This document shows, piece after piece, positions 28,627 through 49,658 of a DNA stretch of 64,000 bases; position 1 is the stretch's first letter; each line of letters begins with the position of its first letter. Origin of the DNA: an uncultured Gammaproteobacteria bacterium (lineage in GTDB: Bacteria; Patescibacteriota; Microgenomatia; Levybacterales; GWA1-39-11); assembly GCA_964425075.1 (NCBI GenBank), contig CAYRKM010000001.1, positions 601,827 to 665,826 of the forward strand. Reading direction: 5' to 3'. A program made the position numbers and the translations under genes. A model generated the notes under the pieces. That model did no database searches, was not told the DNA's origin, and saw only the letters and a list, made by a program, of their open reading frames with translations.

Positions 28627-29372
28627 AAATAGGTGATGTTCTACAACTCGGTGATCATCGCTTGGCGTGTGGAGATGCAAAAGACTCAGCGTTGTTAAAG
28701 AGGCTTATTTTAGATGATCGAATCTCTCTCCTTCTGACGGATCCGCCCTACGGCGTGGCTTATGTTGAAGGAAAAGCTGAACTTACGGAAATTAAGAGTA
28801 ATAAAAAGATAGCCAACGATCACAACCAAACAGAAGGAACGTATCGCCATTTTACGAAGGAATGGCTAGAAGCAATAAAGCCATATCTTGCCAAGAAAAA
28901 TTCTTTTTACATTTTTAACTCAGACAAAATGGTGTTCTCCTTGCGAGATGGCATTGTTGATGCGGGTTTTCGACTCACACAACTACTTGTGTGGATCAAA
29001 AACAATGTTGTCGTCGGACGGCTTCACTATTTACCACAACATGAGCTGATCGCATACGGATGGTTTGGAAGTCATGAGTTCTATAAAGCAAAGGACAAAA
29101 GTATCCTCATCTATCCAAAACCTAATAAAAGCCCACTTCATCCAACCATGAAGCCAGTCGGACTTCTCAGAAACTTAATCCTTAATAGCTCGAAAATTGA
29201 TGACTATGTCTATGACCCATTCGGCGGATCGGGATCAACACTTATTGCTTGCGAACAAACGAAAAGGAAATGCCTCATGGTGGAGATAGATCCGGAGTAC
29301 TGCCAAGTGATTATTGATCGCTTTGAAAAAGTTACAGGTTACAAAGCAGAAAGGACAAAAGATGGAAAATAA
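28617..29372 (+). CDS. DNA methyltransferase (beta-class N4C/N6A)
   Basis: Motif IV LLLTDPPYGV followed by motif I VYDPFGGSGSTLIA. Confidence 0.8.
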   Translation: MQIKIGDVLQLGDHRLACGDAKDSALLKRLILDDRISLLLTDPPYGVAYVEGKAELTEIKSNKKIANDHNQTEGTYRHFTKEWLEAIKPYLAKKNSFYIFNSDKMVFSLRDGIVDAGFRLTQLLVWIKNNVVVGRLHYLPQHELIAYGWFGSHEFYKAKDKSILIYPKPNKSPLHPTMKPVGLLRNLILNSSKIDDYVYDPFGGSGSTLIACEQTKRKCLMVEIDPEYCQVIIDRFEKVTGYKAERTKDGK

Positions 29373-29790
29373 TCCGACGATTCAGAAGCGAATAGATAAA
29401 AATCAGGAACTACTTATTGAGCAGCTTAAGAAAACGCCAATTGTTCAAGTTGCGTGTGAGAAAGTCGGGGTAGGCCGAGCTACTTATTACCGATGGAGAA
29501 AAGAAAATGAAGTATTTGCCGAACAAGCAGATGAAGCAATAGCTGAAGGAGCGTTACTTGTGAATGACATGGCCGAGTCCCAACTCATGGCAGCGATTCG
29601 GGATAAAAATCTCACAGCCATCATTTTCTGGTTGAAGCACCATCACCCTCACTACGCAACGAAAGTTGAAGTGACGGCTAGACTAAAAGCTGATAACGAA
29701 GTTTTAACGCCTGAACAAGAAGCACTAGTAACGAAAGCATTAAAACTTGCCTCATTAATTCCTGAAACAAAGGAGGAAGTAAAACAATGA
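29362..29790 (+). CDS. Terminase small subunit-like HTH protein
   Basis: VACEKVGVGRATYYRWRKE helix-turn-helix; immediately upstream of and overlapping TerL. Confidence 0.5.
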   Translation: MENNPTIQKRIDKNQELLIEQLKKTPIVQVACEKVGVGRATYYRWRKENEVFAEQADEAIAEGALLVNDMAESQLMAAIRDKNLTAIIFWLKHHHPHYATKVEVTARLKADNEVLTPEQEALVTKALKLASLIPETKEEVKQ

Positions 29791-31313
29791 TTGTTGGAGC
29801 AATTACAGATAACGTGCTCGAAGGAATAAAAAGAGAAAGATCCGTGAGACGAGAAGTCGCAAGAAGTAGCCATCTTTGGTTTTTCTCAATATACCTTGGA
29901 CACTATATCAAGTATCCATTTGCGCCGTTTCATTCAGAAATGTTTGCGCTGACGGAAAATGCTGACATACGATTATCAGTTCTTGTAGCATTTCGTGGTT
30001 CTGGAAAATCAACGCTTATAACTCTGTCTTATCCAATCTGGGCAATTGTGGGAGCACAGCAAAAGAAGTTTGTGCTCATCCTCTCTCAAACCCAAACGCA
30101 AGCAAGACTTCATATGGCAAACATAAAACGAGAGCTTGAGAGTAATGACTTATTAAAAGCAGATATTGGACCATTTGAAGAAGTAAGTGACGAATGGGGA
30201 TCAAATTCAATTGTCATCTCAAAATATGGCGCACGTATTACTGTTGCCTCAACGGAGCAGAGTATTCGAGGATTAAGACATGGGGAGCATCGACCTGATC
30301 TGGTTATTTGTGATGATGTGGAGGATTTAAATAGTGTAAAAACCCGGGAAGGACGAGACAAAACATTCCAATGGCTGGTTGGTGAAGTGCTCCCAATCGG
30401 AGATCAAGAAACAAAGATTGTAATTGTTGGAAATCTTTTGCACGAAGACAGTCTCTTAATGCGACTGAAAAAAGGAATTGAAAATGAAAAACTTAATGGA
30501 AAATATTTTGCCTATCCACTCCTAGATATAAATAATACTATTGCATGGCAGGCTAAATTTAAAACTTTAGAGGACGTTGAGAGATTACGGGCAAGTATTG
30601 GAACAGACTCTGCGTGGTATCGAGAGTATTTATTACGAATAATTTCTGATGCGGACCGCTTAGTCCATCCTGAATGGATTCAGTATTATGACCGGATACC
30701 ATCTGAAGATAGTGGTGACTTCCATTACACTGCAACTGGTATTGATCTGGCGATATCTCAACGGGAGTCTGCAGACTATACTGCAATGGTTTCAGCTAAA
30801 GTATTTGGCTACTATGAGAAATTAAAAATATACATCCTGCCCCATCCCGTAAATGAACGTTTAAGTTTTCCTGAAACCTACGAGAAAGCAAAACAATTGT
30901 CCAAAGATTTAGGGGACGGTCACTATACTAAATTATTTATCGAAGATGTAGGATATCAAGCTGCTCTTATCCAAGACTTATCAAATCACAATGTTCCAGC
31001 AGAAGGGGTAAAGGTATCAGGACAAGATAAAAGATCAAGACTTGCTTTGATAACGCATCTTATTAAGCAAGGAAAAGTTCTCTTCCCTAAGGGAAACCAA
31101 GCTGAAGAACTTATTATGCAACTTACCGGGTTCGGTATTGAGAAACATGACGATTTAGCTGATGCGTTTTCGCTTCTACTTCTAAAGATCCTGGAAGAGG
31201 ATCAAGGAGAGCCAAGTGTCTATATCATCGATATGGGAAGCAGTCTTTATGATAGATATTCACCACTCGGGAATCTGAACGAAGACCGTTTTACACTTGA
31301 TACAAAATTTTAG
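29787..31313 (+). CDS. Phage terminase large subunit (ATPase + nuclease)
   Basis: Walker A AFRGSGKSTLI, Walker B LVICDDVED, C-terminal RNaseH-like nuclease with DDLADAF. Confidence 0.85.
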   Translation: MIVGAITDNVLEGIKRERSVRREVARSSHLWFFSIYLGHYIKYPFAPFHSEMFALTENADIRLSVLVAFRGSGKSTLITLSYPIWAIVGAQQKKFVLILSQTQTQARLHMANIKRELESNDLLKADIGPFEEVSDEWGSNSIVISKYGARITVASTEQSIRGLRHGEHRPDLVICDDVEDLNSVKTREGRDKTFQWLVGEVLPIGDQETKIVIVGNLLHEDSLLMRLKKGIENEKLNGKYFAYPLLDINNTIAWQAKFKTLEDVERLRASIGTDSAWYREYLLRIISDADRLVHPEWIQYYDRIPSEDSGDFHYTATGIDLAISQRESADYTAMVSAKVFGYYEKLKIYILPHPVNERLSFPETYEKAKQLSKDLGDGHYTKLFIEDVGYQAALIQDLSNHNVPAEGVKVSGQDKRSRLALITHLIKQGKVLFPKGNQAEELIMQLTGFGIEKHDDLADAFSLLLLKILEEDQGEPSVYIIDMGSSLYDRYSPLGNLNEDRFTLDTKF

Positions 31314-32279: not shown

Positions 32280-32306
32280 TTGACACACTACTACACAATG
32301 TAGTAG
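32280..32306 (+). promoter_or_regulatory. Promoter -35 TTGACA with overlapping cop-box-like palindromic operator CTACTACA-caa-TGTAGTAG upstream of csoR
   Basis: TTGACA at 32280-32285; perfect 8-bp inverted repeat at 32288-32306; same motif recurs 3 more times in island. Confidence 0.5.
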
Positions 32307-33422: not shown

Positions 33423-34580
33423 ATGCAATTATCAAAACACATATATACAATTGCTTCATTTGTTTTTGTAATATTCGTATTGGGACTAGCCTTTTTCTCC
33501 GATAAAATAGCTGCTACTAATAACTCAACTGTTAAACAAAATCAAGCCGCAGAAAAATTATATGTAGCCTTAGAGGATGATGGTGCAATCGCTGTGATTG
33601 ATACAAAAGATAATTCACTTCTTGGCAAAATCGATCTTACAGAAAAGAATGGGGAGATGGAAGTCGGTTACTCAGCTCATAATGTGCAGGTAGCACCGGA
33701 TGGCAAAAGTGTTTGGGTAACTGCAAACTTTATGGGTCTTGGGGGACATGAAGGAGAAAATGATACCACTGAAAATGAAGAAACAAAAGAAGCATTTTCA
33801 GACCAAGTGATAATCATTGATCCCCAAAAGGATTCTATAGTAAAACGTATTGATATAGGAGCTGATCAGCATCTTGCCCACATAGTTGTAACCAGGGGCG
33901 GAAAAACTGCCTTTGCTACCGCGCAGGAACCAGGACTGGTATATAAAATAAACGGTGTAACATACGAAGTCGAGAAAACTATCCCTCTTACAAAAGATGC
34001 AGAGCCGCATGGTCTAAGACTTTCAGCAGATGACACAAAAGCTTTTGTTGCACTTATAGATGGAAAAGGCATTGGTGTAGTCGATACCAGAACAAATGAA
34101 GTAAAAACTGTCCCACTTTCAGGAAGCGCTGTACAAACAGCGGTTATTCCTAATACTAACTATATTGCAGCTTCGGTGTACGATACAAAGCAGATAGCAT
34201 TTTATGATACCGTTACAGGGGAAGTTTCCTATGTAGATTTACCTGCTGAATCTGAAGGCGCAATCCAATCATATGCTACACCAGATGGAAGGTATTTATA
34301 TATTGCAGATCAAGGATATTACTTCGGCAAACCAACAAGTGATTATGTGTATGTTATTGATGTTCAAGGGAAGCAGGTTGTTGGCAAAATTCAGGCAGGT
34401 GTTGCGCCTCACGGTGTTGTAGTGTCCCCTGATGGGAAAAGAGCGTATATTACAAATCTTTTAAGTGATGACATTTCAGTTATTGATACAGCCACTGATA
34501 AAGAACTTACCAAAATAAAAGTTGGAAAAATGCCAAATGGTATTAGCTTGTGGTCACACCAATCGGGAGGTACACCTTAA
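33423..34580 (+). CDS. Secreted YVTN-family beta-propeller repeat protein
   Basis: Signal/TM then repeated ~40-aa units (YVxxxxDxxIxVIDT) typical of YVTN beta-propeller. Confidence 0.55.
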
Positions 34581-36859
34581 TGGAAACGAAAACATTTCAA
34601 GTTAAAGGGATGCACTGCGCATCCTGCGCAAATATCATAAAAAGAAAATTAGAAAAGCTCGAGGGAGTTACAACTTGCACTGTTAATTTCGGAACAGAAA
34701 AAGCAGAAGTAGCATTTGATGCTACGAAAGTTGGGTTGCTTCAGATGAATGAGCAAGTTAACAAGCTTGGGTATACTCTTAATACTACTGAAGCTCCTAA
34801 TGCTTCTGAACAATCACAAGTTTCGACAGAAAATGAGGCAAAAGAGCAAAAGCTTAAAGAACTTGAAGAAATGAGGCAGAAAACAGCCTTTGTCATGCCG
34901 ATTGCAGCAGTTGTTTTTGTCTTGATGCTCTGGGAAATTCTTGTCTCTAGGGTAGCGTTTCTTCCTACCTTTCCTCTTTCAATGGATGCATTTAACAGAG
35001 CATCATTTATATTGGCAACTCCTGTCATGTTCTGGATCGGGAAACCTTTTATTAACGGCGTGGTACGGTTTATTAAGTATAGAGCCGCAAATATGGATAC
35101 ACTGGTTGGAATTGGTACATTAGTTGCATACTTCTACAGCAGTATTATGCTTCTTTTTCCTGAAATAAAGACGCTTCTAAACGCTCCTGAAGGGTTATAT
35201 TATGATGTAACAATTGTCGTTATTGGATTTATTACGTTAGGTAAGTATCTTGAAGCAAAATCAAAACTTAAGACTGGTGAGGCAATTGAAAAACTTTTAG
35301 GGCTTGCGGCAAAATCTGCTATTGTGATTCGCGATGGAAAAGAATTAGAGATTCCCATTGGACAAGTAGTTGTCGACGATACGCTTATTGTGAAACCAGG
35401 TCAAAAAATCCCAGTAGATGGAGAGATTATTCAAGGAAAATCCTCAATAGATGAGTCCATGATTACAGGAGAATCAATACCAGTTGATAAAACTGTTGGG
35501 GATACCGTGATCGGTGCAACTATTAATAAACACGGCGCATTTCAAATGAAGGCAACACAGGTAGGAGGACAAACAGTTTTGTCTCAAATAATAAAAATGG
35601 TTGAGGCGGCTCAAGGATCAAAAGCGCCTATTGAAAGGATAGCCGATCAAGTATCAGGAGTTTTCGTTCCCATTGTTTTGGTATTTGCAGTTATTGTCCT
35701 TCTTTTATGGCTCACTGTTGGATCTCAATTTATGCCATTCTCTCAAGCTCTCTCGCTTGGTCTTATTAGCTTTGTAGGAATTTTGGTTATCGCCTGTCCA
35801 TGCGCAATGGGTCTTGCAACTCCCACCGCTGTCATAGTCGGCGTTGGTAAAGCAGCGCAAAATGGTATCTTAATTAAGAATGCAGAAAGTCTTGAGAAGT
35901 TTCAAGGTATTAACTTTGTTGTGATGGATAAAACAGGCACGATTACTAATGGAACACCCGCAGTAACGGATATAAAAGTGACTGCAAAAATAGCGCAAAA
36001 AAAGATATTACAGCTGCTTGCGTCTTTAGAAAAACAATCAGAACACCCATTAGCTCAGGCAGTAGTTGATGCGGCAAAAGATGAAAATATTAGCTTCTTA
36101 TCAGTTTCTCACTTCAAGGCATTGGAAGGAAAGGGGCTTGAAGGAAGTATTGCCGGAACGCATTACTTTGCCGGAAATCTTAAATTAGCAGATGATCTTG
36201 GGTTAAAAGTTGATACAAATTTGATTAAAAAATTAACTTCGCAAGGAAAAACACCAGTAGTCTTTGCAACTAAAAAAGCAATTATTGCCTATGTTGCTAT
36301 AGCCGATACCATCAAAGAAGACGCAAAAGAAGCAGTTGCAGCGCTTCATAAGCTTGGTATCAAAGTTGCAATGCTAACAGGAGATAACAGACGTACTGCA
36401 GAACACATTGCAAAGCAAGTTGGCATTGATCGGGTTATTGCAGAAGTGCTACCAAGCGATAAGGCGAAGGAAGTAAAAAAGCTACAGGATGAAGGGTATA
36501 AAGTCGCAATGGTAGGTGATGGTATTAATGATGCACCAGCGCTTGCTACGGCTGATGTGGGAGTGGCAATGGGCACAGGAACTGATGTGGCTATTGAGTC
36601 TGCAGGAATAACCCTTCTTGGCGGTCACATTTCTAAATTACCAAAAGCAATAAAGCTTTCCCGTAAAACTATGCGGGTTATCAAACAGAATCTGTTCTGG
36701 GCATTTTTCTATAATATTGTCGGGATCCCGGTAGCTGCGGGAGCGCTATATCCATTTATAGGTATTATGCTTTCTCCTGCGATTGCAGGGGCAGCGATGG
36801 CCTTTAGCAGTGTTTCAGTCGTGACCAATTCACTTCTTCTAAAACGTCATAGACTTTAA
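34580..36859 (+). CDS. copA: Copper-translocating P1B-type ATPase (CopA-like)
   Basis: N-terminal [13 protein letters not shown]6 CPC ([11 protein letters not shown]), [15 protein letters not shown]. Confidence 0.9.
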
Positions 36860-38598: not shown

Positions 38599-38615
38599 TG
38601 CTACAATATGTAGTA
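38599..38615 (+). promoter_or_regulatory. Cop-box-like operator tgCTACA-ATA-TGTAGta overlapping TACAAT -10 and start codon of blaI-like gene
   Basis: Inverted repeat CTACA/TGTAG with 3-nt spacer; TACAAT hexamer inside. Confidence 0.45.
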
Positions 38616-38992
38616 TGAAACCTAATCTTGGTGAGCTTGAGCAACAGATCATGGACATTGTTTGGGAGCACAAAAACTGCTCTGCTCGTGATGTTCTTAA
38701 TATGATTGAGAAAGATAAAAAACTTGCATACACCACCGTCGCAACAATCTTACAAAGACTCTTCGATAAAGGTCTTCTTACTCGAAATGAAAATACTGCT
38801 GGACATATTTACTCTCCTAAGGTTTCAAAGGAAAAATACACAAAAAATGTCGCTCAGTCGTTTTTAAAGAACTTCATAAATTCTTTTGGTGATACCGCAA
38901 TCGCCTCATTTGCGGACAGTATTGATAAGCTGCCGGAAAAAAAGAGAAAGTATTTTTTAAAAGTTCTCGACGAGTATGATAAAAATAAATAA
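38615..38992 (+). CDS. BlaI/MecI/CopY-family winged-helix transcriptional repressor
   Basis: LGELEQQIMDIVWEHKNCSARDVL...AYTTVATILQRLFDKGLL matches Penicillinase_R family; lacks CopY C-terminal Cys motif. Confidence 0.8.
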   Translation: MKPNLGELEQQIMDIVWEHKNCSARDVLNMIEKDKKLAYTTVATILQRLFDKGLLTRNENTAGHIYSPKVSKEKYTKNVAQSFLKNFINSFGDTAIASFADSIDKLPEKKRKYFLKVLDEYDKNK

Positions 38993-39983
38993 AAATCTTT
39001 CCTTATTTTCGGGGTTATTTCTTTTATTGGGAACGCTTTTACTTTACACGCTTCAAAAGTTTTCTCCACTTTTAGGTCACGTTACATATTACTGTCAGTC
39101 ATTACTAATAGATGCAAATATGGTCCCGATACCCTATTACCTTAGTATGATTCCATTTGCTTTACTTTTCATTATTTTGGCAATTTCTGTAATAAAGTTT
39201 CTTGTTCTAAACATTAAAGTACAATTTCTTAAATTTAAATTAAAAGGAAGTGTTGCTATTGATACTAGCACTTATAAACTAATCAGTCGGCTTGGATTAC
39301 AAGATAAAGCAATCCTTGTAAAGTCAGATAAGCAGTTTGCATTTTGTTTAGGCGTCAGAATGCCCAAGATTTACTTTTCAACTGGTTTACTTACTCAGTT
39401 GTCACAGAAAGAATTAGAAGCAGTGCTATTACATGAACAATATCATTTAGAAAATTATGATACATTTACTATGATTGTCGCATCAGTCGCGCAATCACTG
39501 TTTCCTTTTTTCCCATTGATTAATGATCTTATTAATAAATACAGGATTGAAAGAGAAATAGCTGCTGACAAATTTGCAGTTGACAAGTTAGCTGACAAAT
39601 ACATACTTATATCGGCCCTTAAAAAACTTCTTGCGTTTCCTACTGTTCAGGCAGCACCAGTTGCTGCTATTGCAGACCAGGATACACTAGAACCAAGAAT
39701 TTACTCGCTTGTAAATAAACCATATGTCAGGCGACACTTTAAACTAAAACATGCATTTATAACCTTATTTTCTTGTTTGGTACTTGCAGCAGTTATTGTT
39801 ATGCCAGTACATGCCAAAGAGCTTCACCACGAAGAACATGATGTCATGATGCTCTGTACAGATGGAGAATGTATGAACTCATGCACAAGCGAAAAGAACT
39901 TGAATAAACTTTATTCTGAAATACCAGGTGCTGAAGTGAATCAGTCAATCTCATCACAACCATACAGTCCAATTCATAAGTAG
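38976..39983 (+). CDS. BlaR1/MecR1-like M56 peptidase membrane protein with Cys/His-rich C-terminal tail
   Basis: 4 TM helices, HEQYHL (HExxH) zinc-protease motif; C-terminal HHEEHDVMMLCTDGECMNSC instead of a penicillin-binding sensor domain. Confidence 0.75.
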   Translation: MIKINKNLSLFSGLFLLLGTLLLYTLQKFSPLLGHVTYYCQSLLIDANMVPIPYYLSMIPFALLFIILAISVIKFLVLNIKVQFLKFKLKGSVAIDTSTYKLISRLGLQDKAILVKSDKQFAFCLGVRMPKIYFSTGLLTQLSQKELEAVLLHEQYHLENYDTFTMIVASVAQSLFPFFPLINDLINKYRIEREIAADKFAVDKLADKYILISALKKLLAFPTVQAAPVAAIADQDTLEPRIYSLVNKPYVRRHFKLKHAFITLFSCLVLAAVIVMPVHAKELHHEEHDVMMLCTDGECMNSCTSEKNLNKLYSEIPGAEVNQSISSQPYSPIHK

Positions 39984-40021: not shown

Positions 40022-40040
40022 CTACTACAATATGTAGTAG
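40022..40040 (+). promoter_or_regulatory. Cop-box-like operator CTACTACA-ATA-TGTAGTAG within promoter (TTGACA 40002-40007; TACAAT 40026-40031) of dsbA-like operon
   Basis: Perfect 8-bp inverted repeat with 3-nt spacer; overlaps -10. Confidence 0.55.
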
Positions 40041-41903: not shown

Positions 41904-42131
41904 ATGCAAACAGTAAAATTAAACATTTATGGCATGCATTGTACGAGTTGCGCTTTCAATATTGATGGTGAGCTTGAAGATATGGAAGGAGTTAAAGAAT
42001 CAAAGACAAATTATGCAAAGCAGCAAACTGAAGTAACTTTTGATCCTAAAAAAATTTCACCAGATAAGATTATAAGCATTATTAAAAAGCTTGATGATAG
42101 TTATGATGCTGAAGTTAATAAAGAAGAGTAA
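41904..42131 (+). CDS. copZ: Heavy-metal-associated (HMA) copper chaperone CopZ-like
   Basis: 75 aa with GMHCTSCA MxCxxC motif. Confidence 0.85.
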   Translation: MQTVKLNIYGMHCTSCAFNIDGELEDMEGVKESKTNYAKQQTEVTFDPKKISPDKIISIIKKLDDSYDAEVNKEE

Positions 42132-42136
42132 CATGT

Positions 42137-42646
42137 ATGACAACAGAAAAGAAAGTAATCGGCGGTATTGCACTTTTAACTATAGCCATATTAGTTGGTG
42201 GAGTTTTCTTTTTGTCGGCTAGCTCTAATCAATCCACTTCTGGTAACTCAAATAACAATTCCGATACATCTGTCCCCGAAAGTGAAATTGTTGTTCGTAA
42301 TGGTATGCATTGGCATCCGAAACTATCGATCTATATTAACGGAGAAAAACAGCCTTTCACAAACGGTATTGGTTTAAATGGTGCAGTACATAACCCTATT
42401 CATACTCATGATGACGCTGACAAAGATATTGTTCACATGGAGTTTCAGGGTGTTGTTAGCAAGGAAGATACAAAATTAAGTAACTTCTTTAAGATATGGG
42501 GTAAAGACTTTTCATCAACTCAGATTTTTGATAAGAAAAATGGAGAAGAAGGAACTGTTAAAATGATGGTTAACGGAAAAGAAAACACAGAATTTCAAAA
42601 TTATATGATGAAGGATGGCGATAATATTGAGATACGCTATGAATAA
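42137..42646 (+). CDS. Secreted His-rich hypothetical protein
   Basis: N-terminal TM; HNPIHTHDDADKDIVHMEF His cluster. Confidence 0.35.
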   Translation: MTTEKKVIGGIALLTIAILVGGVFFLSASSNQSTSGNSNNNSDTSVPESEIVVRNGMHWHPKLSIYINGEKQPFTNGIGLNGAVHNPIHTHDDADKDIVHMEFQGVVSKEDTKLSNFFKIWGKDFSSTQIFDKKNGEEGTVKMMVNGKENTEFQNYMMKDGDNIEIRYE

Positions 42647-42851
42647 AGAAATAAAAACAATCGCTCATCTTGCTTGTCCGAAGTGCGGAAAATTACAAAC
42701 AGCAAAAATGCCTACAGATGCCTGTCAGCATTTTTATAAATGTCAAAGCTGTGGTGAAACCATAAAGCCAAAAGAAGGAGATTGTTGTGTATTCTGTTCT
42801 TATGCTGATACAAAATGTCCGCCAAAACAAGCGGAGCAAATGATGATATGA
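42642..42851 (+). CDS. Small Cys-rich (zinc-ribbon-like) protein
   Basis: CPKCG...CQSCG...CCVFCSY Cys pairs in ~70 aa. Confidence 0.4.
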   Translation, partial: NKEIKTIAHLACPKCGKLQTAKMPTDACQHFYKCQSCGETIKPKEGDCCVFCSYADTKCPPKQAEQMMI

Positions 42852-44458
42852 ATACTATGCAAAGAATACTTATTGCTGTCGTTATAGGTATTGCGCTTCT
42901 GGGAGCAGGAATATATTTGTATTCAAATTCTCAGAGGCAAAGAGAAGGATCGAGTAAGACGGGAGAATATTCAAAAGCGGTAAAGAATTATCCTGAAGCA
43001 AAATCTTCTGAGGTTGTAGAGCTAAAGAATGGTGATTCGTACAATTTAACGGCGAGTATAGTAAAGAGAAAAATTAATGGAACAGAAGTAAAAATGCTCG
43101 CCTATAACGGCTCGATTCCAGGCCCACTTATCAAAGTACCACAAGATGCTGAAATTACCATTAATTTCAAAAACGACACTGATGTAGATACAGCCCTACA
43201 TTCACATGGAGTCAGGCTTGAGAATCAATTTGATGGGGTGGTAGATGTTACCCAGAAGGCAATTCCAGTTGGCGGTACTTTTACTTACAAAGTGAAATTT
43301 CCGGATGAAGGGATCTTCTGGTATCATCCTCACTTTCGAGAAGATTATGCTCAAGAACTTGGACTCTATGGTAATTACCTTGTAGCACCTGAACAAAAAG
43401 ACTATTGGGCTGAAGTAGATCGAGAAGAAGCGCTGTTTTTAGATGATATTCTTTTGCAAAACGGGCAGGTAGCAGCTTTCAGCAGAGCAGGGGCAGATCA
43501 TACCTTAATGGGAAGATTTGGGAACGTCATGCTTGTGAATGGTAACGACAATTATAAATTATCGGTTAAACAAGGAGAGAGGATCCGTTTCTATATAACC
43601 AATTCAGCTAATACCAGAGTATTTAATTTTTCTATTCCCAATGCCCGAATGAAGTTAGTAGGCGCGGACAATGGCAAATACGAGCGCGAGGAGTGGGTCG
43701 ATTCGATTGTAATCGGACCGTCTGAACGCTCAGTTATAGAAATCTGGTTTGATCAGGCAGGAGATTATCAGATAGTTAATAAAACCCCTGAAAAAACATA
43801 CACGATGGGCACAATAGCCGTTGCATCTGCTCCAGTAACTACATCATATCTTCTCGTGCCTCGGGTAAATCAAGATTTTATTAATTCTTTATCCTCAATT
43901 CGTCCGCTCTTTACTAAACCTGCTGATAAGACACTTAATATGACTCTTACGATGATGGGAAATATGATGCAGCAAAATCAGAACAATGAGGGTATGCACA
44001 ACATGCATGGAGGCCAAATGATGCCAAATGAAGAAATGCCTTTGAATGACGGAACAGTTGAAAAAATAGAATGGGAAGATGATATGGGACAGATGAACGT
44101 AATGTCCAATACAAAAATGATTACATGGAAACTTGTTGACACAGAAACAAAAGCGGAAAATATGGATATTAAATGGCAGTTTAAAAAAGGAGACAAGATA
44201 AAACTCAAGCTTATCAATGATCCGAAAGCTCAACACCCTATGCAACATCCCATCCATGTTCACGGCCAGCGGTTCTTAGTACTGAATACAAATGGAGTAC
44301 CGAATCAAAACTTGGTTTGGAAAGACACAGTGCTCGTGCAGACCGGTGACACAGTAGAACTACTTGTCGATATGGATAATCCTGGCGACTGGGTGCTTCA
44401 CTGTCATATACCTGAGCATATGGAAGCCGGGATGATGTCACAGTTTGAAGTAATCTAA
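42815..44458 (+). CDS. Multicopper oxidase (CueO/laccase-like) with Met-rich insert (start may be Met12 at 42848)
   Basis: WYHPH and HCHIPEHMEAGMM copper-site motifs; Met-rich segment MMGNMMQQNQNNEGMHNMHGGQMM. Confidence 0.85.
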   Translation: MSAKTSGANDDMNTMQRILIAVVIGIALLGAGIYLYSNSQRQREGSSKTGEYSKAVKNYPEAKSSEVVELKNGDSYNLTASIVKRKINGTEVKMLAYNGSIPGPLIKVPQDAEITINFKNDTDVDTALHSHGVRLENQFDGVVDVTQKAIPVGGTFTYKVKFPDEGIFWYHPHFREDYAQELGLYGNYLVAPEQKDYWAEVDREEALFLDDILLQNGQVAAFSRAGADHTLMGRFGNVMLVNGNDNYKLSVKQGERIRFYITNSANTRVFNFSIPNARMKLVGADNGKYEREEWVDSIVIGPSERSVIEIWFDQAGDYQIVNKTPEKTYTMGTIAVASAPVTTSYLLVPRVNQDFINSLSSIRPLFTKPADKTLNMTLTMMGNMMQQNQNNEGMHNMHGGQMMPNEEMPLNDGTVEKIEWEDDMGQMNVMSNTKMITWKLVDTETKAENMDIKWQFKKGDKIKLKLINDPKAQHPMQHPIHVHGQRFLVLNTNGVPNQNLVWKDTVLVQTGDTVELLVDMDNPGDWVLHCHIPEHMEAGMMSQFEVI

Positions 44459-44535: not shown

Positions 44536-45030
44536 ATGGCAAAGGAACATGAACATAATGTCGAGCCAATAAGAGGAAGCATTTTTGTTTTAACTCTAAA
44601 ACTTGCACTCATACTGCTTATTATAGACTCTCTTTACAGCCTTATATATTATCTCCTTAATTTAGGCTTTGGTATTCCTTTTGATTTCCATCACCACATT
44701 TCAGTAACGCTCTTTATCACACAAGTAGGAAAGATCATACTTGAAATTTTTCTGATTACTTATGTGGTTTTGCAGTGGGCAAATAATACCTATTTTCTTA
44801 CAGATAAGCATTTAATACGAAGAACTGGAATACTTAGCACCGAAGAAGATGTATTTCATTTCGAAAATATCAGATCTATTACAACACACCAGTCTTTATT
44901 AGGAAGGCTTTTTAACTACGGAGACGTTATATTAAAAACAAGTGCTTCAGGAGGGTATCAAGGCGAAGTTACCCTGACAGGAATCTCCAATCCATATAAA
45001 TACGAAAACGCTCTCAAAAAATCCTTTTGA
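44536..45030 (+). CDS. Membrane protein with bacterial PH domain (bPH_2/YdbS-like)
   Basis: Two TM helices then YFLTDKHLIRRTGILSTEEDVFHFENIRSI pattern of bPH_2. Confidence 0.6.
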   Translation: MAKEHEHNVEPIRGSIFVLTLKLALILLIIDSLYSLIYYLLNLGFGIPFDFHHHISVTLFITQVGKIILEIFLITYVVLQWANNTYFLTDKHLIRRTGILSTEEDVFHFENIRSITTHQSLLGRLFNYGDVILKTSASGGYQGEVTLTGISNPYKYENALKKSF

Positions 45031-45033
45031 CTG

Positions 45034-45054
45034 TGTACTACAATTAGTAGTACA
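45034..45054 (+). promoter_or_regulatory. Cop-box-like operator TGTACTACA-ATT-AGTAGTACA upstream of second P-type ATPase
   Basis: 8/9-bp inverted repeat arms; TTGACT -35-like hexamer at 45027-45032. Confidence 0.45.
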
Positions 45055-45081: not shown

Positions 45082-47304
45082 ATGAGTAACAAAACATATA
45101 CCTGTCCAATGCATCCTGAAGTCAGAAAAGACAAGCCTGGTGTTTGTCCTAAATGTGGCATGGCACTTGTTGAAGTAAAGAATGATAAACATGGAATGCA
45201 TGAAAGTCATTTGAGCCATGAGCATACAATGAAATCCCTTGATCAAATGTCATTTTGGGAAAAATTCAAGATGAGTATGACTATGACAATGGGTATGGAC
45301 CATACAGGGAAAGCAGGACGTGAGATGGCGAAGCTAATGGAAGAGGATATTCGAAATAAGTTTTTGGTCTCTCTTCTTTTGACACTTCCAATTGTTGCCT
45401 ATTCTCCACTTGGAAAGAACATCTTTGGTCTTAATCTACCAACGCCGATTCCTGAGAATTGGTTAATGCTGTTACTGACAACTCCTGTTTATTTTTATTG
45501 TGGTTGGATATTCCTTTACTCAAGTTATATTGCTCTTAAACAAAAGACGCTCAATATGGCAGTTTTGATTGCCGTTGGCATTACTGCGGCCTATGTCTTT
45601 AGTATTGTTTTAACTCTTTTAGGATCTGAAGAATCTTTTTATGAAGCAGCAGCAATGCTTACTACTTTTGTCCTCTTTGGTCATTGGATGGAAATGAAAT
45701 CAAGGCGTGGCACAACTGATGCCCTTCAGGCCCTATTTAATCTCGTTCCCCCTCAAGCACGAGTAATGAGAAATGGCAAAGAGCAGTTAATTCCTACCTC
45801 AGAAGTTGTATTAGGAGATATTGTCGTTCTTAAGCCTGGCGATAAAGTGCCGGTTGACGGGGAAATTATAGAAGGAGAAACGTCAATAGACGAATCACTT
45901 GTTACAGGTGAATCAATACCTGTTGCCAAGAAAAAGGGAGATAGTGTCATTGGCGGTTCCATCAATACTTCAGGATCAGTACAATTCAATGCCACAAAAG
46001 TAGGAGGAGATACAGCGCTAGCACAGATTGTAAAGATGGTAGAAACAGCTCAGAACTCAAAAGCTCCCGGGCAGAAGCTTGCTGATAGGTTTGCCAAGTA
46101 TTTAGTTATTGTAGCTGTTGGAGGAGGATTACTAACCTTTGCAGTATGGTTTTTAATTCTCGGCCAACCATTCTTATTTGCAGTCACATTTGCCATTTCA
46201 ACAGTTGTTATTGCCTGTCCTGATGCTCTTGGACTTGCAACACCTACAGCGGTGGCAGTAGGAACAGGACTTGGAGCCAAACACAACATTTTGATTAAAG
46301 ACGCTCCGACACTTGAACAGGTATCCAAGATCCAAGCCGTAGTGTTAGATAAAACAGGCACTCTCACAGAAGGAAAGCCACAAGTGACAGGTATTGCAAC
46401 CGCAAAAGGGTTTTCAGAAAAAGAAGCACTAAGACTCGTGGGAGCCGCAGAGGTAAAATCTTCTCATCCTTTAGCAAACGCCGTAATCGAAGAGCTGAAA
46501 AAAAGAAAACTTGCTTTGCCTACATCAATAGAAAAATTTGAGAATCTTTCTGGGCTTGGCGTAAAAGCCACAGTAGAAGGTAAAAAGGTACTTGTCGGGA
46601 CAGTGAAATTGATGAAAGAAAATAGCGTTGATGTAAAGCCTCTCGAAAACAAAATTAATGAATTTTTAGAAAACGGAAATACTATCATGCTTCTTGCAGT
46701 TGAAGGTACCATTTCAGCTCTTGTAGGAGCTGCAGATCCAATAAAAGAGAATGCAAAAAAAGCTATAGATAAATTAAATGAATTAGGCATAGAAACTGCA
46801 ATGATCACTGGGGACAACGAAAAAACAGCACAAGTAGTTGCGAAGAAGATTGGTATCAAACGAGTATTTGCCGATGTCATGCCTGAAGATAAAGCTTCAT
46901 ATGTTAAAAAGTTGCAGCAAGAAGGAAAATTTGTGGCTATGGTTGGCGATGGTGTAAACGATGCGCCTGCACTTGCTCAAGCAGATATAGGAATTGCTAT
47001 TGGTGCCGGAACGGATGTAGCAATAGAAACAGCGAAAGTTGTACTTATGAAATCTGATCCAGCAGATGTGCTTCGCGCTATTAGACTCTCCAAAGCAACA
47101 GTAAGGAAAATGAAACAAAACCTATTCTGGGCATCTATTTATAATCTTTTGGCAATTCCTGTGGCTGCTGGAGTTCTTTACCCTGCTTTCCAGATTTCGC
47201 TACGTCCCGAAATATCAGCTCTTCTGATGAGCATTTCCTCAATCATTGTTGCAACAAATGCAGTCCTCCTTAATAGAGCAGAAAAAGACCTTATAAGTGT
47301 GTAA
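45082..47304 (+). CDS. Heavy-metal P1B-type ATPase with N-terminal CxxC x2 metal-binding domain, His-rich stretch and non-canonical CPD TM6 motif
   Basis: YTCPMHPE...CPKCGM; HGMHESHLSHEH; IACPDALGLATP; DKTGTLT; GDGVNDAP. Confidence 0.85.
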   Translation: MSNKTYTCPMHPEVRKDKPGVCPKCGMALVEVKNDKHGMHESHLSHEHTMKSLDQMSFWEKFKMSMTMTMGMDHTGKAGREMAKLMEEDIRNKFLVSLLLTLPIVAYSPLGKNIFGLNLPTPIPENWLMLLLTTPVYFYCGWIFLYSSYIALKQKTLNMAVLIAVGITAAYVFSIVLTLLGSEESFYEAAAMLTTFVLFGHWMEMKSRRGTTDALQALFNLVPPQARVMRNGKEQLIPTSEVVLGDIVVLKPGDKVPVDGEIIEGETSIDESLVTGESIPVAKKKGDSVIGGSINTSGSVQFNATKVGGDTALAQIVKMVETAQNSKAPGQKLADRFAKYLVIVAVGGGLLTFAVWFLILGQPFLFAVTFAISTVVIACPDALGLATPTAVAVGTGLGAKHNILIKDAPTLEQVSKIQAVVLDKTGTLTEGKPQVTGIATAKGFSEKEALRLVGAAEVKSSHPLANAVIEELKKRKLALPTSIEKFENLSGLGVKATVEGKKVLVGTVKLMKENSVDVKPLENKINEFLENGNTIMLLAVEGTISALVGAADPIKENAKKAIDKLNELGIETAMITGDNEKTAQVVAKKIGIKRVFADVMPEDKASYVKKLQQEGKFVAMVGDGVNDAPALAQADIGIAIGAGTDVAIETAKVVLMKSDPADVLRAIRLSKATVRKMKQNLFWASIYNLLAIPVAAGVLYPAFQISLRPEISALLMSISSIIVATNAVLLNRAEKDLISV

Positions 47305-47373
47305 TTTTGATTAATCCTCATAGTATTTTGCGTCTGGACTTCAAAGAACGGTTGCGGTACCTTGTCCCCTGAT

Positions 47374-48702
47374 ATGAACTACCAGAATGAATTATTACAG
47401 CAACCAACTCAAACACAACCGCTGGTTATTGAATATTGTCTCTACGCACGAAAATCCACAGAAGATGACGAGCGCCAAGCGATGTCAATCGATTCTCAAA
47501 TTAAAGAGATGACTGACATGGCGATCAAAGAAGGACTCTTTATCAAAGAAATCAGACGAGAAAGTCATTCTGCTAAAATGTCAGGACAACGACCAGTCTT
47601 CAATCAACTTCTCAATGACTTAAGAAATGGTCTATTCACCGGAATTCTCACATGGGCTCCGGATCGATTATCAAGAAATGCAGGAGATTTAGGAATGCTG
47701 GTTGATATGATGGATGGCGGAAAACTCATTCACATTAAAACATTTACGCAGGCATTCTCAAACAGTCCAAGCGATAAATTTTTACTCATGATTCTCTGCT
47801 CTCAAGCAAAACTCGAGAATGACCAAAAAGGGATAAATGTTAAACGAGGTATCAGAGCTAAATGCAATATGGGATGGAGACCAGGGATGCCACCAATCGG
47901 TTATTTCAACAGAGCAATGGCTGGGATAAAAGATATTATTCCTGACCCTGAAAGAGCACCATTTGTGACAGAAATGTTTGAAAGAGTTGCGAGGAACGGA
48001 GATAGTGGACGAACACTCAAAAAATGGCTGGATACATGCCTTACAACAAGGGCGGGAAAGAGAGTCACGCTAAGTCAGATTTATCTCATGCTCAAGAATC
48101 CTTTCTATTACGGGGAATTTGAATATCCAATTGGAAGCGGTAATTGGTATAAGGGATCACATAAGCCATTAATTACCAAAGAGCTATTTGATCAAGTCCA
48201 GAAACAACTTACAGTGCCATTTAAAAAAGCAAAATGGGGAAGCAAAATGTTTACCTTCAAAGAACTCTTTAAATGTGCAAGCTGCGGATCATTAGTAATT
48301 GGTGAGGACAGATATAGAAAGAGAAAATATGGAGAGCCGAGGTATCATATCTACTATCATTGTACTAGACAAAAGAAGTACGGCTGTCCTGAGCCATACT
48401 TAACAGAAGAAAAGCTTGTAAAGCAAATTCTTCGATATCTTAATTTTATGTACATGGCACACCCGCAAATATTTACCTTCAAGGAATTTATAAAACAAAG
48501 CATGGAAGCATATAAGAAAATGAGAGACGAAATTCTCTGGGCGCAAGATATAAACCCTGAGAATAAGCCTGTACATTTTATGGATTATGCAAATTATATT
48601 TTCAGAAATGGAACACTGCAAGAAAAACGAGAAATAACGAATATCCTCAATCGACAACTCTATATACACAACGAAACGGTCACTTCAGTACCCCTTATCT
48701 AG
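47374..48702 (+). CDS. Large serine recombinase (paralog of 17457..18797)
   Basis: Same motif set; conserved upstream TGCGGTACCTTGT..CCTGA.ATG shared with paralog. Confidence 0.85.
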   Translation: MNYQNELLQQPTQTQPLVIEYCLYARKSTEDDERQAMSIDSQIKEMTDMAIKEGLFIKEIRRESHSAKMSGQRPVFNQLLNDLRNGLFTGILTWAPDRLSRNAGDLGMLVDMMDGGKLIHIKTFTQAFSNSPSDKFLLMILCSQAKLENDQKGINVKRGIRAKCNMGWRPGMPPIGYFNRAMAGIKDIIPDPERAPFVTEMFERVARNGDSGRTLKKWLDTCLTTRAGKRVTLSQIYLMLKNPFYYGEFEYPIGSGNWYKGSHKPLITKELFDQVQKQLTVPFKKAKWGSKMFTFKELFKCASCGSLVIGEDRYRKRKYGEPRYHIYYHCTRQKKYGCPEPYLTEEKLVKQILRYLNFMYMAHPQIFTFKEFIKQSMEAYKKMRDEILWAQDINPENKPVHFMDYANYIFRNGTLQEKREITNILNRQLYIHNETVTSVPLI

Positions 48703-49466: not shown

Positions 49467-49537
49467 CTGGGAGTCAGGGATTTGAACCCCAATAAACAGA
49501 TCCAGAATCTGTTGTCCTACCATTAGACGAACTCCCA
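49467..49537 (-). tRNA. tRNA-Gln (anticodon CUG), U1-A72, discriminator G, CCA not encoded
   Basis: Manual cloverleaf: acceptor TGGGAGT/ACTCCCA, D stem GTCT/GGAC, anticodon stem ACAGA/TCTGT with loop TTCTGGA, T loop TTCAAAT. Confidence 0.7.
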
Positions 49538-49658
49538 AAAAATTTGTTCGATTTATTGCCATTCGTCTAATGTCGAACTCATTAGACGAACTCCCATTGA
49601 GTTCACATATTTTACTAGATTTGATCATTTATTGCTATTCTAGTGATAAAATTATGAA

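What the first reader, a model, noticed from the sequence alone, without database searches (positions are those of the whole stretch)
45082..47304. P1B-ATPase with CPD instead of CPC/CPH and an N-terminal double-CxxC module plus His-rich stretch
TM6 reads IACPDALGLATP, whereas copper pumps normally have CPC (Cu+) or CPH (Cu2+). The N-terminus has YTCPMHPE...CPKCGM (an HMBD-like module known from CusB/CzcB-type proteins) followed by HGMHESHLSHEH. This combination suggests altered metal specificity relative to the canonical CopA (34580..36859) in the same island.
Basis: partly seen in the sequence, partly recalled or inferred. Interest (0 to 1): 0.5.

Follow-up and report, generated by a model that had tools for sequence, protein, structure and literature searches.

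The report
CopB-like copper pump with CPD motif
This gene encodes an intact metal-pumping ATPase whose unusual Cys-Pro-Asp motif is genuine and conserved, but the motif marks a widespread, almost unstudied branch of copper pumps rather than a one-off oddity, and the gene's surroundings point to copper export.

Summary
ORF 45082-47304 (+) encodes a complete 740-aa P1B-type ATPase with IACPDALGLATP in the ion-binding helix, an N-terminal HMBD module and a His-containing linker.

The Asp is not a sequencing error. All 120 closest homologues (77-100% identity, Patescibacteria/CPR) and the nearest distant relatives (48-62%) carry CPD.

CPD is not rare. A truncated scan of species-representative genomes gave at least 120 CPD ATPase genes across many phyla. 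The closest plasmid-borne relatives are also CPD.

In NJ trees, CPD and classical CopB (CPH) pumps form one clade, with 100% bootstrap, separate from all CPC CopA pumps. The transmembrane residues of CPD pumps are a mosaic of CopA-like and CopB-like positions.

One paper (PMC5552934) has noted CPD, in three rhizobial proteins. I found no characterised member.

The HMBD/His N-terminus is ordinary: LpCopA and Cupriavidus CopF have it with CPC.

Context indicates copper. The gene lies in a mobile island with CopA, CopZ, a multicopper oxidase and cupredoxins. It shares an operator-like palindrome with three other island operons. A relative sits in a CsoR operon.

Altered specificity (for example Cu2+) is possible but untested.

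Verdict: new member of a barely described known subtype; moderate-to-low interest.

The parts
45082..47304 (+). Complete P1B-type ATPase gene (740 aa), CPD subtype of the CopB-like lineage
   Evidence: ORF and translation. Pfam HMBD + E1-E2_ATPase + Hydrolase. NCBIfam TIGR01525 616 bits and TIGR01511 591 bits, both above cut-off. Best solved relative is LpCopA 3rfu, E=1e-170. AF2 model with 8 TM helices; Foldseek TM 0.71-0.81 to AfCopA 7r0g.
45097..45177 (+). N-terminal HMBD module (residues 6-32), Cys3His: C8-x2-H11 ... C22-x2-C25
   Evidence: Pfam PF19335, E=6.9e-14. Aligns to residues 39-63 of LpCopA. Conserved in orthologues. Small beta structure in the model, pLDDT 71-82.
45190..45225 (+). 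His-containing linker HGMHESHLSHEH (residues 37-48); variable and predicted disordered
   Evidence: There are 3-9 His per linker among 102 orthologues. pLDDT <50 for residues 34-49.
45247..45363 (+). Strongly conserved Met-rich block (residues 56-94, KMSMTMTMGM core) leading into helix MA
   Evidence: At least 90% conservation across 120 orthologues. The median is 11 Met between the HMBD and MA.
45679..45696 (+). M2 motif GHWMEM (H201, E204, M205). E204 aligns with the LpCopA entry residue E205. H201 and M205 are CopB-lineage signatures.
   Evidence: H201 and M205 are 100% in CPD and CPH, versus K/R and A in CPC. Mapping from the alignment.
46216..46224 (+). CPD motif in M4 (C379-P380-D381). 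D381 occupies the position of the LpCopA Cu ligand C384.
   Evidence: Alignment to LpCopA. The M4 helix is broken at residues 378-381 in the model. D is 100% conserved in the clade.
46348..46362 (+). DKTGT phosphorylation motif (D423)
   Evidence: invariant in the alignment.
47140..47160 (+). M5 copper-type motif YNLLAIP (YN(x)4P)
   Evidence: Y687 and N688 are invariant and align with LpCopA Y688/N689.
47227..47241 (+). M6 copper-type motif MSISS (M(x)2SS). M716 aligns with the LpCopA Cu ligand M717.
45034..45054 (+). Perfect 8-bp-arm palindrome TGTACTAC-AATTA-GTAGTACA, 28 nt upstream of the start codon. It is one of four TACTACAnnnTGTAGTA sites in the island and a putative operator of the BlaI-like repressor. 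It also scores as terminator-like.
   Evidence: 4 sites against 0.07 expected. Conserved at the same place in orthologous islands L125 and L129.
32289..32305 (+). Operator-like palindrome ahead of the cupredoxin / beta-propeller / CopA operon
38599..38615 (+). Operator-like palindrome abutting the start of the BlaI-like repressor gene
   Evidence: conserved in L125 and L129.
40023..40039 (+). Operator-like palindrome 20 nt before the DsbA-like gene (DsbA - DsbD/cupredoxin - CopZ - ... - MCO operon)
   Evidence: conserved in L125 and L129.
38615..38992 (+). BlaI/CopY-family repressor (Penicillinase_R), lacking a CopY-type Cys tail
38976..39983 (+). BlaR1-like M56 membrane peptidase with a His/Cys/Met-rich C-terminal tail; candidate sensor
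34580..36859 (+). Canonical CopA of the same island ([21 protein letters not shown])
41904..42131 (+). CopZ-like HMA metallochaperone (75 aa, GMHCTSCA)
   Evidence: Pfam HMA on the identical gene in L125.
42815..44458 (+). Membrane-anchored multicopper oxidase with a Met/His-rich insert
44536..45030 (+). bPH_2 membrane protein directly upstream of the ATPase; conserved partner in the island
47362..48702 (+). Large serine recombinase at the right end of the island
   Evidence: The same position in L125-L129, with different flanks beyond it.

Best explanation
The gene encodes a functional cytoplasm-to-outside copper-exporting P1B-type ATPase. It belongs to the CopB-like (historical P1B-3) lineage, in a subtype whose M4 motif is CPD instead of CPH.

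Shown:
- All catalytic motifs are intact.
- There are eight TM helices, with M4 unwound at CPD.
- D381 sits at the position of the second Cu-ligating Cys of CopA.
- The other copper-site residues are kept (C379, Y687, N688, M716, S720). So are the entry and exit residues (M159, E204, D335, E188).
- The Asp is invariant in a large clade.

Inferred:
- The transported ion is copper. It would be bound by a mixed S(Cys379)/O(Asp381)/S(Met716) site.
- Copper would arrive via the N-terminal Cys3His HMBD, the Met-rich segment, or the island's CopZ. It would pass through an entry site enriched in His and Met (H201, M205).
- The pump would be expressed together with CopA, CopZ, the Dsb/cupredoxin proteins and the multicopper oxidase. 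Control would come from the island's BlaI/BlaR1-like pair, acting through a shared palindromic operator.
- It serves as the second, non-redundant pump of a mobile copper-tolerance island in a CPR bacterium.

Whether the carboxylate shifts preference towards Cu(II) or only changes affinity or release is not known.
For: - Family and motifs.
- Homology to the LpCopA ligands and pathway residues.
- AF2 topology with the M4 break at 378-381, and Foldseek matches to Cu-ATPases.
- CPD is present in 120/120 close homologues and in the nearest distant ones.
- The CPD+CPH clade has 100/100 and 60/60 NJ bootstraps against all CPC.
- Lineage-specific residues.
- Copper context in the window (CopA, CopZ, MCO, cupredoxins, DsbD).
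- The same island occurs in other CPR genomes.
- A CsoR-YHS-DsbD-redoxin-ATPase operon occurs in another CPR genome.
- An MCO lies directly upstream of the Thermus CPD pump. DUF305 and a four-helix-bundle Cu-binding protein flank the Deinococcus pump.
- In 120 CPD loci, MCO appears in 10, CsoR in 7, HMA in 15 and DUF305 in 5.
- The shared operator-like palindrome occurs 4 times against 0.07 expected and is conserved in orthologous islands.
Against: - I found no characterised CPD pump, so the substrate is inferred from homology and context only.
- A carboxylate is a hard ligand that is atypical for Cu(I).
- Many group-B CPD pumps sit in non-copper contexts (PPK2, MFS, phosphoketolase), so the family may not be functionally uniform.
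- The palindrome before the gene also fits a terminator of the upstream bPH_2 gene.
- The model confidence is only moderate (pLDDT 76).
Confidence: 0.68

Rival explanations
1. The Asp changes what is pumped. The CPD pump is selective for Cu(II), so the island has one pump per oxidation state. Alternatively, it is selective for another divalent ion such as Zn, Cd, Pb, Co or Ni.
For: - The Asp carboxylate is a hard ligand.
- The position is a direct metal ligand in CopA and is invariant within the clade.
- CPD pumps co-occur with CPC and CPH paralogues in one island or plasmid, which suggests non-redundancy.
- From my own knowledge, not checked here: ZntA uses an Asp in its site. The Cu+/Cu2+ selectivity of CopB has been disputed (Mana-Capelli 2003, Meloni 2014, Purohit 2018).
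Against: - The copper-type YN(x)4P and M(x)2SS motifs, and the CopA entry and exit residues, are retained.
- There is no P1B-2 style Lys in M5 or Asp in M6.
- The NCBIfam Cu subfamily model scores above its cut-off, and far above the Cd/Zn models.
- The neighbours with a metal-related annotation are mostly copper genes or general metal-binding HMA proteins. A Cu(I)-sensing CsoR heads one orthologue's operon.
Confidence: 0.2
2. The pump is mainly a metallating pump rather than a detoxifier. It would deliver copper across the membrane to the adjacent membrane-anchored multicopper oxidase and cupredoxin-domain proteins, as CopA2/CcoI-type pumps do for oxidases.
For: - An MCO lies upstream of the pump here (with only the bPH_2 gene between them) and directly upstream in Thermus.
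- MCO plus a CopB-type pump also occurs on the Rhodococcus plasmid.
- MCO was found in 10 of 120 CPD loci.
- A high-turnover CopA is already present in the island.
Against: - Several CPR genomes carry the HMBD-CPD pump with no MCO within 9 kb on either side.
- The island's organisation, with repressor and chaperone, looks like a resistance module.
- The two roles are not mutually exclusive.
Confidence: 0.12
3. The CPD is a sequencing or assembly error, or a decaying gene: a CPC or CPH pump with a point change.
For: None found. CPH (CAY) to CPD (GAY) is a single-base change.
Against: - The identical protein occurs on 5 independent contigs.
- 120/120 homologues and distant relatives across phyla carry CPD.
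- The ORF is intact and all catalytic motifs are conserved.
Confidence: 0.01

Closest known systems
CPD-type Cu-ATPases of Rhizobiales (clade VIc in Cubillas et al. 2017, PMC5552934; e.g. Xanthobacter autotrophicus Py2 Xaut_4847)
   Same: - CPD in M4, YN(x)4P in M5, M-S-x-S-S in M6 and GHWxEM in M2.
- The same CPD+CPH clade.
- 47% identity over 99% of the query.
   Different: - The rhizobial and actinobacterial proteins (group B) are about 818 aa. They have an HMA-like N-terminus without CxxC plus a His/Met-rich stretch.
- The window protein (group A, with Deinococcota, Chloroflexota and CPR) has an HMBD instead.
- Group B often lies beside PPK2, MFS or phosphoketolase genes rather than copper genes.
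- Neither group has been characterised biochemically, as far as I could find.
Classical CopB / P1B-3 pumps (CPH; e.g. the plasmid copB of Arthrobacter, and Thermococcus and haloarchaeal CopB sampled here)
   Same: - They form one clade with CPD pumps, with 100% NJ bootstrap.
- Shared residues are H201, M205, L341, A345, G349, M677 and S108/P109.
- They are often paired with a multicopper oxidase.
   Different: - His rather than Asp at the third CPx position.
- CPH pumps have W-E where CPD and CPC pumps have E-A (positions 188/189).
- They differ along M4: I/V387, V390, S394, S/T396, A398.
Legionella pneumophila CopA (PDB 3rfu) and C. metallidurans CopF / SilP-type CPC pumps
   Same: - LpCopA is the best solved relative (E=1e-170).
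- They share the N-terminal YTCPMHPE...CP.CGM HMBD, and in CopF also the His-rich stretch.
- They share E188, P329 and the GLATPTA...G.G.G part of M4.
   Different: They are CPC pumps in the separate CPC clade. They lack the GHWxEM, L341, A345 and G349 signatures.

Membership tests
P1B-type (heavy-metal) P-type ATPase | DKTGT phosphorylation site, TGES, GDGxNDxP, the SxHP nucleotide-domain motif, and xPx in M4 | tested here: met
   DKTGT 423-427, TGES 275-278, GDGVNDAP 622-629, SSHP 460-463 and CPD 379-381. TIGR01525 scores 616 bits against a cut-off of 346.
P1B-type (heavy-metal) P-type ATPase | Eight TM helices, including the P1B-specific MA/MB pair | tested here: met
   AF2 helices at 76-107, 125-153 (kinked at 140-142), 159-179, 187-219, 329-359, 364-400 (broken at 378-381), 661-702 and 709-728. 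Foldseek TM 0.71-0.81 to AfCopA.
P1B-1 (CopA, Cu+) | CPC in M4 | tested here: not met
   CPD.
P1B-1 (CopA, Cu+) | YN(x)4P in M5 and M(x)2SS in M6 | tested here: met
   YNLLAIP 687-693 and MSISS 716-720.
P1B-1 (CopA, Cu+) | Groups phylogenetically with CPC pumps | tested here: not met
   The split {CPD+CPH} | {CPC} appeared in 100/100 and 60/60 NJ bootstraps.
P1B-3 (CopB) | CPH in M4 | tested here: not met
   Asp replaces His. All 9 sampled CPH proteins form their own subclade (99/100 and 60/60 bootstraps).
P1B-3 (CopB) | Shares the lineage (clade and lineage-specific TM residues) with CPH pumps | tested here: met
   Clade support. H201, M205, L341, A345, G349 and M677 are shared.
P1B-3 (CopB) | His-rich N-terminus without a CxxC domain | tested here: inconclusive
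   A modest, variable His stretch is present (6 His in residues 37-48). It lies behind a Cys3His HMBD.
P1B-2 (ZntA/CadA, Zn/Cd/Pb) | CPC, plus a conserved Lys in M5 and Asp (DxG) in M6 | tested here: not met
   M5 and M6 carry YN and MSISS, with no such Lys or Asp. The ZntA models score far below their cut-offs: 343-384 bits against 1005-1240.
CPD subtype (Cubillas clade VIc, 'IB-3' novel subtype) | CPD in M4 with YN(x)4P and MSxSS, clustering with CopB | tested here: met
   The window protein falls in a sister subgroup (A) of the rhizobial group (B).
Any of the above | Transported metal and oxidation state | not testable with these tools
   Requires biochemistry.

The most novel reading that the evidence does not exclude
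CPD pumps are a third functional class of copper-family P1B ATPases. Their Cys/Asp/Met site would give them a different substrate preference from both CopA and CopB, for example Cu(II) or another divalent ion, or a different transport stoichiometry. Islands like this one would then carry two mechanistically distinct pumps. Characterising a CPD pump could help settle the long-running Cu+/Cu2+ question for the CopB lineage.
Probability: 0.2. Interest if true: 0.6.

Novelty: new member of a known kind. Interest (0 to 1): 0.3.

Why it matters
The third residue of the CPx motif is one of the features used to sort P1B ATPases into metal-specificity classes.

This work shows that CPD is not an error. 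It is the invariant signature of a large, cross-phylum and often mobile group of pumps, sister to or interleaved with classical CopB. Annotation pipelines label these proteins generically. I found only one paper that mentions the motif.

If the Asp changes selectivity or kinetics, many 'copper ATPase' annotations hide a distinct activity. For this window specifically, the gene is an ordinary-looking component of a mobile copper-tolerance island in a CPR bacterium.

Tried and rejected
- The sequencing-error or pseudogene explanation is rejected.
- I looked for a characterised CPD pump.
  - C. metallidurans pMOL30 CopF has the same HMBD/His N-terminus but is CPC.
  - Literature searches for CPD with P1B/PIB/CPx/CPC terms returned only PMC5552934. 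The other hits were unrelated uses of 'CPD'.
- Purohit 2018 (PMC5834730) and Smith 2014 (PMC4119550) are not held in the library. Statements about CopB Cu+/Cu2+ selectivity therefore rest on my own knowledge.
- A naive nearest-ORF Pfam census of 120 CPD loci was low-yield, because ORF calling is unreliable in high-GC genomes. I replaced it with a tblastn census using annotated neighbours.
- A search for att-like direct repeats flanking the island found nothing convincing.
- The branching order of CPD group A, CPD group B and CPH is unresolved. Internal branches are very short, and only NJ on a biased sample was possible.
- AF2 coordinates could not be read, so no ligand distances were measured.
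- The relative abundance of CPD, CPH and CPC could not be estimated.
Full report
**1. Observation**

The ORF 45082..47304 (+) is real and complete: 740 aa with an ATG start. Pfam finds HMBD (residues 6-32, E=6.9e-14), E1-E2_ATPase and the HAD hydrolase domain. NCBIfam places it above cut-off in the heavy-metal (TIGR01525, 616 bits) and copper (TIGR01511, 591 bits) P1B subfamilies. The Zn/Cd models score far below their cut-offs.

- IACPDALGLATP at residues 377-388. The Asp codon is GAT at 46222-46224.
- YTCPMHPE...CPKCGM at residues 6-27.
- HGMHESHLSHEH at residues 37-48.

The catalytic motifs TGES, DKTGT, SSHP and GDGVNDAP are intact.

Two details need correcting. The N-terminal module is CxxH...CxxC (Cys3His), not a double CxxC. 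The His stretch varies among orthologues (3-9 His), whereas a Met-rich block at residues 56-94 (core KMSMTMTMGM) is nearly invariant. The protein has only five cysteines: 8, 22, 25, 140 and 379.

The 'canonical CopA' at 34580..36859 is confirmed. It has [16 protein letters not shown] and MAFSS.

**2. Is the Asp real?**

Yes.
- All 120 best database homologues carry CPD. They share 77-100% identity and are named by their sources as Woesebacteria, Levybacteria, Daviesbacteria, WWE3 and other Patescibacteria.
- The identical protein is on five independent contigs.
- In an exhaustive HMMER search of 50%-identity representatives, the four best-scoring hits (48-62% identity) are all CPD, and three further CPD hits rank lower. 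The rest of the top 150 are almost all CPC (134), with five CPH.

**3. How common is CPD?**

I scanned one genome per GTDB species for the back-translated pattern CPDALGLATP. All 120 matches lie in frame in long P-type ATPase ORFs. Of these, 117 have DKTGT just downstream and 103 have the GHW motif in M2.

The loci span many phyla:
- Actinomycetota
- Alpha-, Beta- and Gammaproteobacteria
- Chloroflexota, Gemmatimonadota and Armatimonadota
- Dormiibacterota and Myxococcota
- several CPR groups

The best plasmid-borne relatives (47-52% identity) are also CPD. They come from Xanthobacter autotrophicus Py2 pXAUT01, Rhodococcus, Deinococcus gobiensis and Thermus brockianus.

**4. Where does it belong?**

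In NJ trees on 600-626 core columns, CPD and CPH proteins together form one clade against all CPC pumps (100/100 and 60/60 bootstraps). CPH proteins are monophyletic (99/100, 60/60). CPD alone is never a clan.

Three lineages appear:
- CPD group A: Deinococcota, Chloroflexota and CPR, including the query.
- CPD group B: Actinomycetota and Proteobacteria, including the rhizobial proteins.
- Classical CPH CopB.

The internal branches are very short, so their order is unresolved.

Residue signatures show a mosaic:
- CPD pumps share with CPH: H201 and M205 in M2 (GHWMEM); L341, A345 and G349 in M3; M677 in M5; and S108/P109.
- CPD pumps share with CPC: E188, P329, and T387, A390, G394, G396 and G398 along M4.

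**5. Literature**

Only one paper in the searchable library mentions the motif. Cubillas et al. [quoted passage not shown] They cluster these proteins with CopB and propose a new subtype. I found no functional study of a CPD pump.

The same paper treats the His-rich/CPxC N-terminus of the Legionella Lpg1024 and SilP type as a known CPC subtype. I confirmed this for LpCopA. I also confirmed it for C. metallidurans CopF, which combines His-rich, YHS and HMBD segments with CPC. Two CPH proteins also carry an HMBD. Among the 120 CPD loci, an HMBD was found in only six. The four of these I identified are CPR members (Saccharibacteria, Moranbacteria and an unclassified Patescibacteria).

The N-terminus therefore says little about specificity. 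The HMBD+CPD combination is a CPR-clade feature.

**6. Anatomy and mechanism**

The phmmer alignment to LpCopA maps residues as follows:

| LpCopA | Query | Role assigned in LpCopA (own knowledge) |
|---|---|---|
| C382 | C379 | Cu ligand |
| C384 | D381 | Cu ligand |
| M717 | M716 | Cu ligand |
| Y688/N689 | Y687/N688 | M5 copper-type motif |
| M148, E205, D337 | M159, E204, D335 | entry |
| E189 | E188 | exit |
| M711 | E710 | exit pathway |
| E99/M100 | S108/P109 | MA, near the exit |

The AF2 model (pLDDT 76, pTM 0.64) gives the P1B eight-helix topology. M4 is unwound exactly at 378-381, and the 34-49 linker is disordered. The model superposes on AfCopA E1 (TM 0.71-0.81) and Cu-bound HMA4 (TM 0.74).

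Inference: the ion site is Cys379/Asp381/Met716. The H201-x2-E204-M205 turn and the Met-rich pre-MA segment make the entry region richer in His and Met than in CopA.

Established knowledge of CopA sites supports the ligand assignment by homology only. No geometry could be measured.

**7. Context**

The gene is the last cargo gene of a conserved island. The order is:
1. cupredoxin/DUF7282
2. YncE-like propeller
3. CopA
4. a 241-aa protein with no Pfam hit here; the corresponding genes in L125 and L129 are BNR/Sortilin-type and DUF5074-type
5. alpha/beta hydrolase
6. BlaI-like repressor
7. BlaR1-like peptidase
8. DsbA
9. DsbD_2-cupredoxin
10. CopZ-like HMA
11. a 169-aa protein
12. a small GDCCVxC Cys-rich protein
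13. multicopper oxidase
14. bPH_2 protein
15. the CPD ATPase
16. a large serine recombinase

The same order, from CopA rightwards, occurs in an identical-protein contig and in a complete Woesebacteria genome (CP065002.1, 84% identity). The flanks beyond the recombinase differ, which indicates mobility.

A palindrome, TACTACAnnnTGTAGTA, occurs four times in the window against 0.07 expected. The sites lie before the cupredoxin/CopA operon, abutting the repressor gene, before dsbA, and 30 nt before the CPD ATPase. Three of the four sites (the repressor, dsbA and ATPase sites) are conserved in the orthologous islands; those loci do not reach the fourth. A similar site lies next to the BlaI-like gene of a WWE3 genome. 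I infer a common regulon. The site before the ATPase also scores as a terminator-like hairpin.

Elsewhere in CPR, the HMBD-CPD pump lies in varied places:
- In a CsoR-YHS-DsbD-redoxin-ATPase operon.
- Beside a two-component system and DUF5676.
- In housekeeping regions near CutA1.

Outside CPR, group A pumps sit next to an MCO (Thermus), or next to DUF305 and a four-helix-bundle copper-binding protein (Deinococcus).

A tblastn census of the 120 CPD loci gave the following counts:
- Copper-linked or metal-binding: HMA 15, MCO 10, CsoR 7, DUF305 5.
- Group B only: MFS 14, phosphoketolase 9, PPK2 5.

This matches annotated plasmids where PPK2, MFS, DUF6629, phosphoketolase and glycogen genes flank the pump.

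**8. Conclusion**

For this window, the best-supported reading is a copper-exporting CopB-like pump. It would be co-regulated with CopA, CopZ and the oxidase in a mobile copper island.

It has no positive evidence here, and the HMBD/His argument does not hold.

CPD is the common signature of a defined, already noticed, but uncharacterised subgroup.

I rate it a new member of a known kind, with interest about 0.3. The residual novel reading, a functionally distinct third class of copper-family pumps, has a probability of about 0.2.

Noticed in passing
window 32289-32305, 38599-38615, 40023-40039, 45036-45052; L129 3600/5025/9928; L125 3518/4942/9955; L135 849-865: The palindrome TACTACAnnnTGTAGTA occurs four times in the window against 0.07 expected. 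Each copy lies just upstream of an island operon, including the BlaI-like repressor gene itself. Three of the four sites are conserved in orthologous islands. It is a likely operator of a BlaI/BlaR1-type copper regulon in CPR bacteria.
   Followed up: partly
window ~26500-49300 (recombinase 47362-48702; terminase 29787-31313; methylases/ParB 27334-29372): The copper genes form a mobile island ending in a large serine recombinase. The same gene order, from CopA rightwards, occurs in a Woesebacteria genome (CP065002.1) and in other contigs with different flanks beyond the recombinase. Upstream lie phage-like genes (large terminase, ParB-methylase, DNA methylase). GC content is slightly raised (0.38-0.41 against 0.32-0.37). 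No att repeats were found.
   Followed up: partly
window 38615-39983: The BlaI-like repressor lacks the CopY Cys tail. Its BlaR1-like M56 partner ends in a His/Cys/Met-rich tail (HAKELHHEEHDVMMLCTDGECMNSC), which could be an extracytoplasmic metal sensor.
   Followed up: no
window 42615-42851: A small Cys-rich ORF (CPKCGK...CQSCGE...GDCCVFCSY...C) lies between the 169-aa gene and the multicopper oxidase, and overlaps the oxidase start. It is conserved as a 70-aa gene in the orthologous contigs with the identical ATPase (L125-L128).
   Followed up: no
window 42815-44458: The multicopper oxidase has an N-terminal membrane anchor and a Met/His-rich insert (MTLTMMGNMMQQNQNNEGMHNMHGGQMM), as in the methionine-rich copper-binding inserts of CueO/PcoA-type oxidases (own knowledge).
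   Followed up: no
L121, L139-L144 (plasmids of Xanthobacter, Roseovarius, Streptomyces, Nocardia, Bradyrhizobium, Mycolicibacterium, Methylophaga); L001-L120: CPD group B pumps often sit next to polyphosphate kinase 2, MFS transporters, DUF6629, phosphoketolase, glycogen-metabolism genes and HlyD/ABC genes. This gene set overlaps the predicted FixK (microoxia) regulon in PMC2908626. These pumps may therefore serve a role other than classical copper resistance.
   Followed up: partly
L122 and L130 (Rhodococcus pyridinivorans plasmid pC, NZ_CP113801.1): One conjugative plasmid carries a CPD pump, a CPH CopB (in an MCO-DUF305-ATPase arrangement) and a further P1B ATPase. This argues that CPD and CPH pumps are not redundant.
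   Followed up: no
L125 17428-22223: In the contig with the identical island, a second copper cluster (CsoR, DUF305/DUF4142, cupredoxin, another HMA-CopA, BNR protein, DsbD_2-cupredoxin) lies about 5 kb beyond the recombinase.
   Followed up: no
alignment positions 188/189 of the query: Classical CPH CopB proteins have W-E where CPD and CPC pumps have E-A. The Glu that aligns with the LpCopA exit residue E189 is shifted by one position in CPH pumps only.
   Followed up: no
window 49521-49537 and 49580-49596: A perfect 17-nt direct repeat (CATTAGACGAACTCCCA), spaced 59 nt apart, lies just outside the island and upstream of the pyrimidine-dimer glycosylase gene.
   Followed up: no
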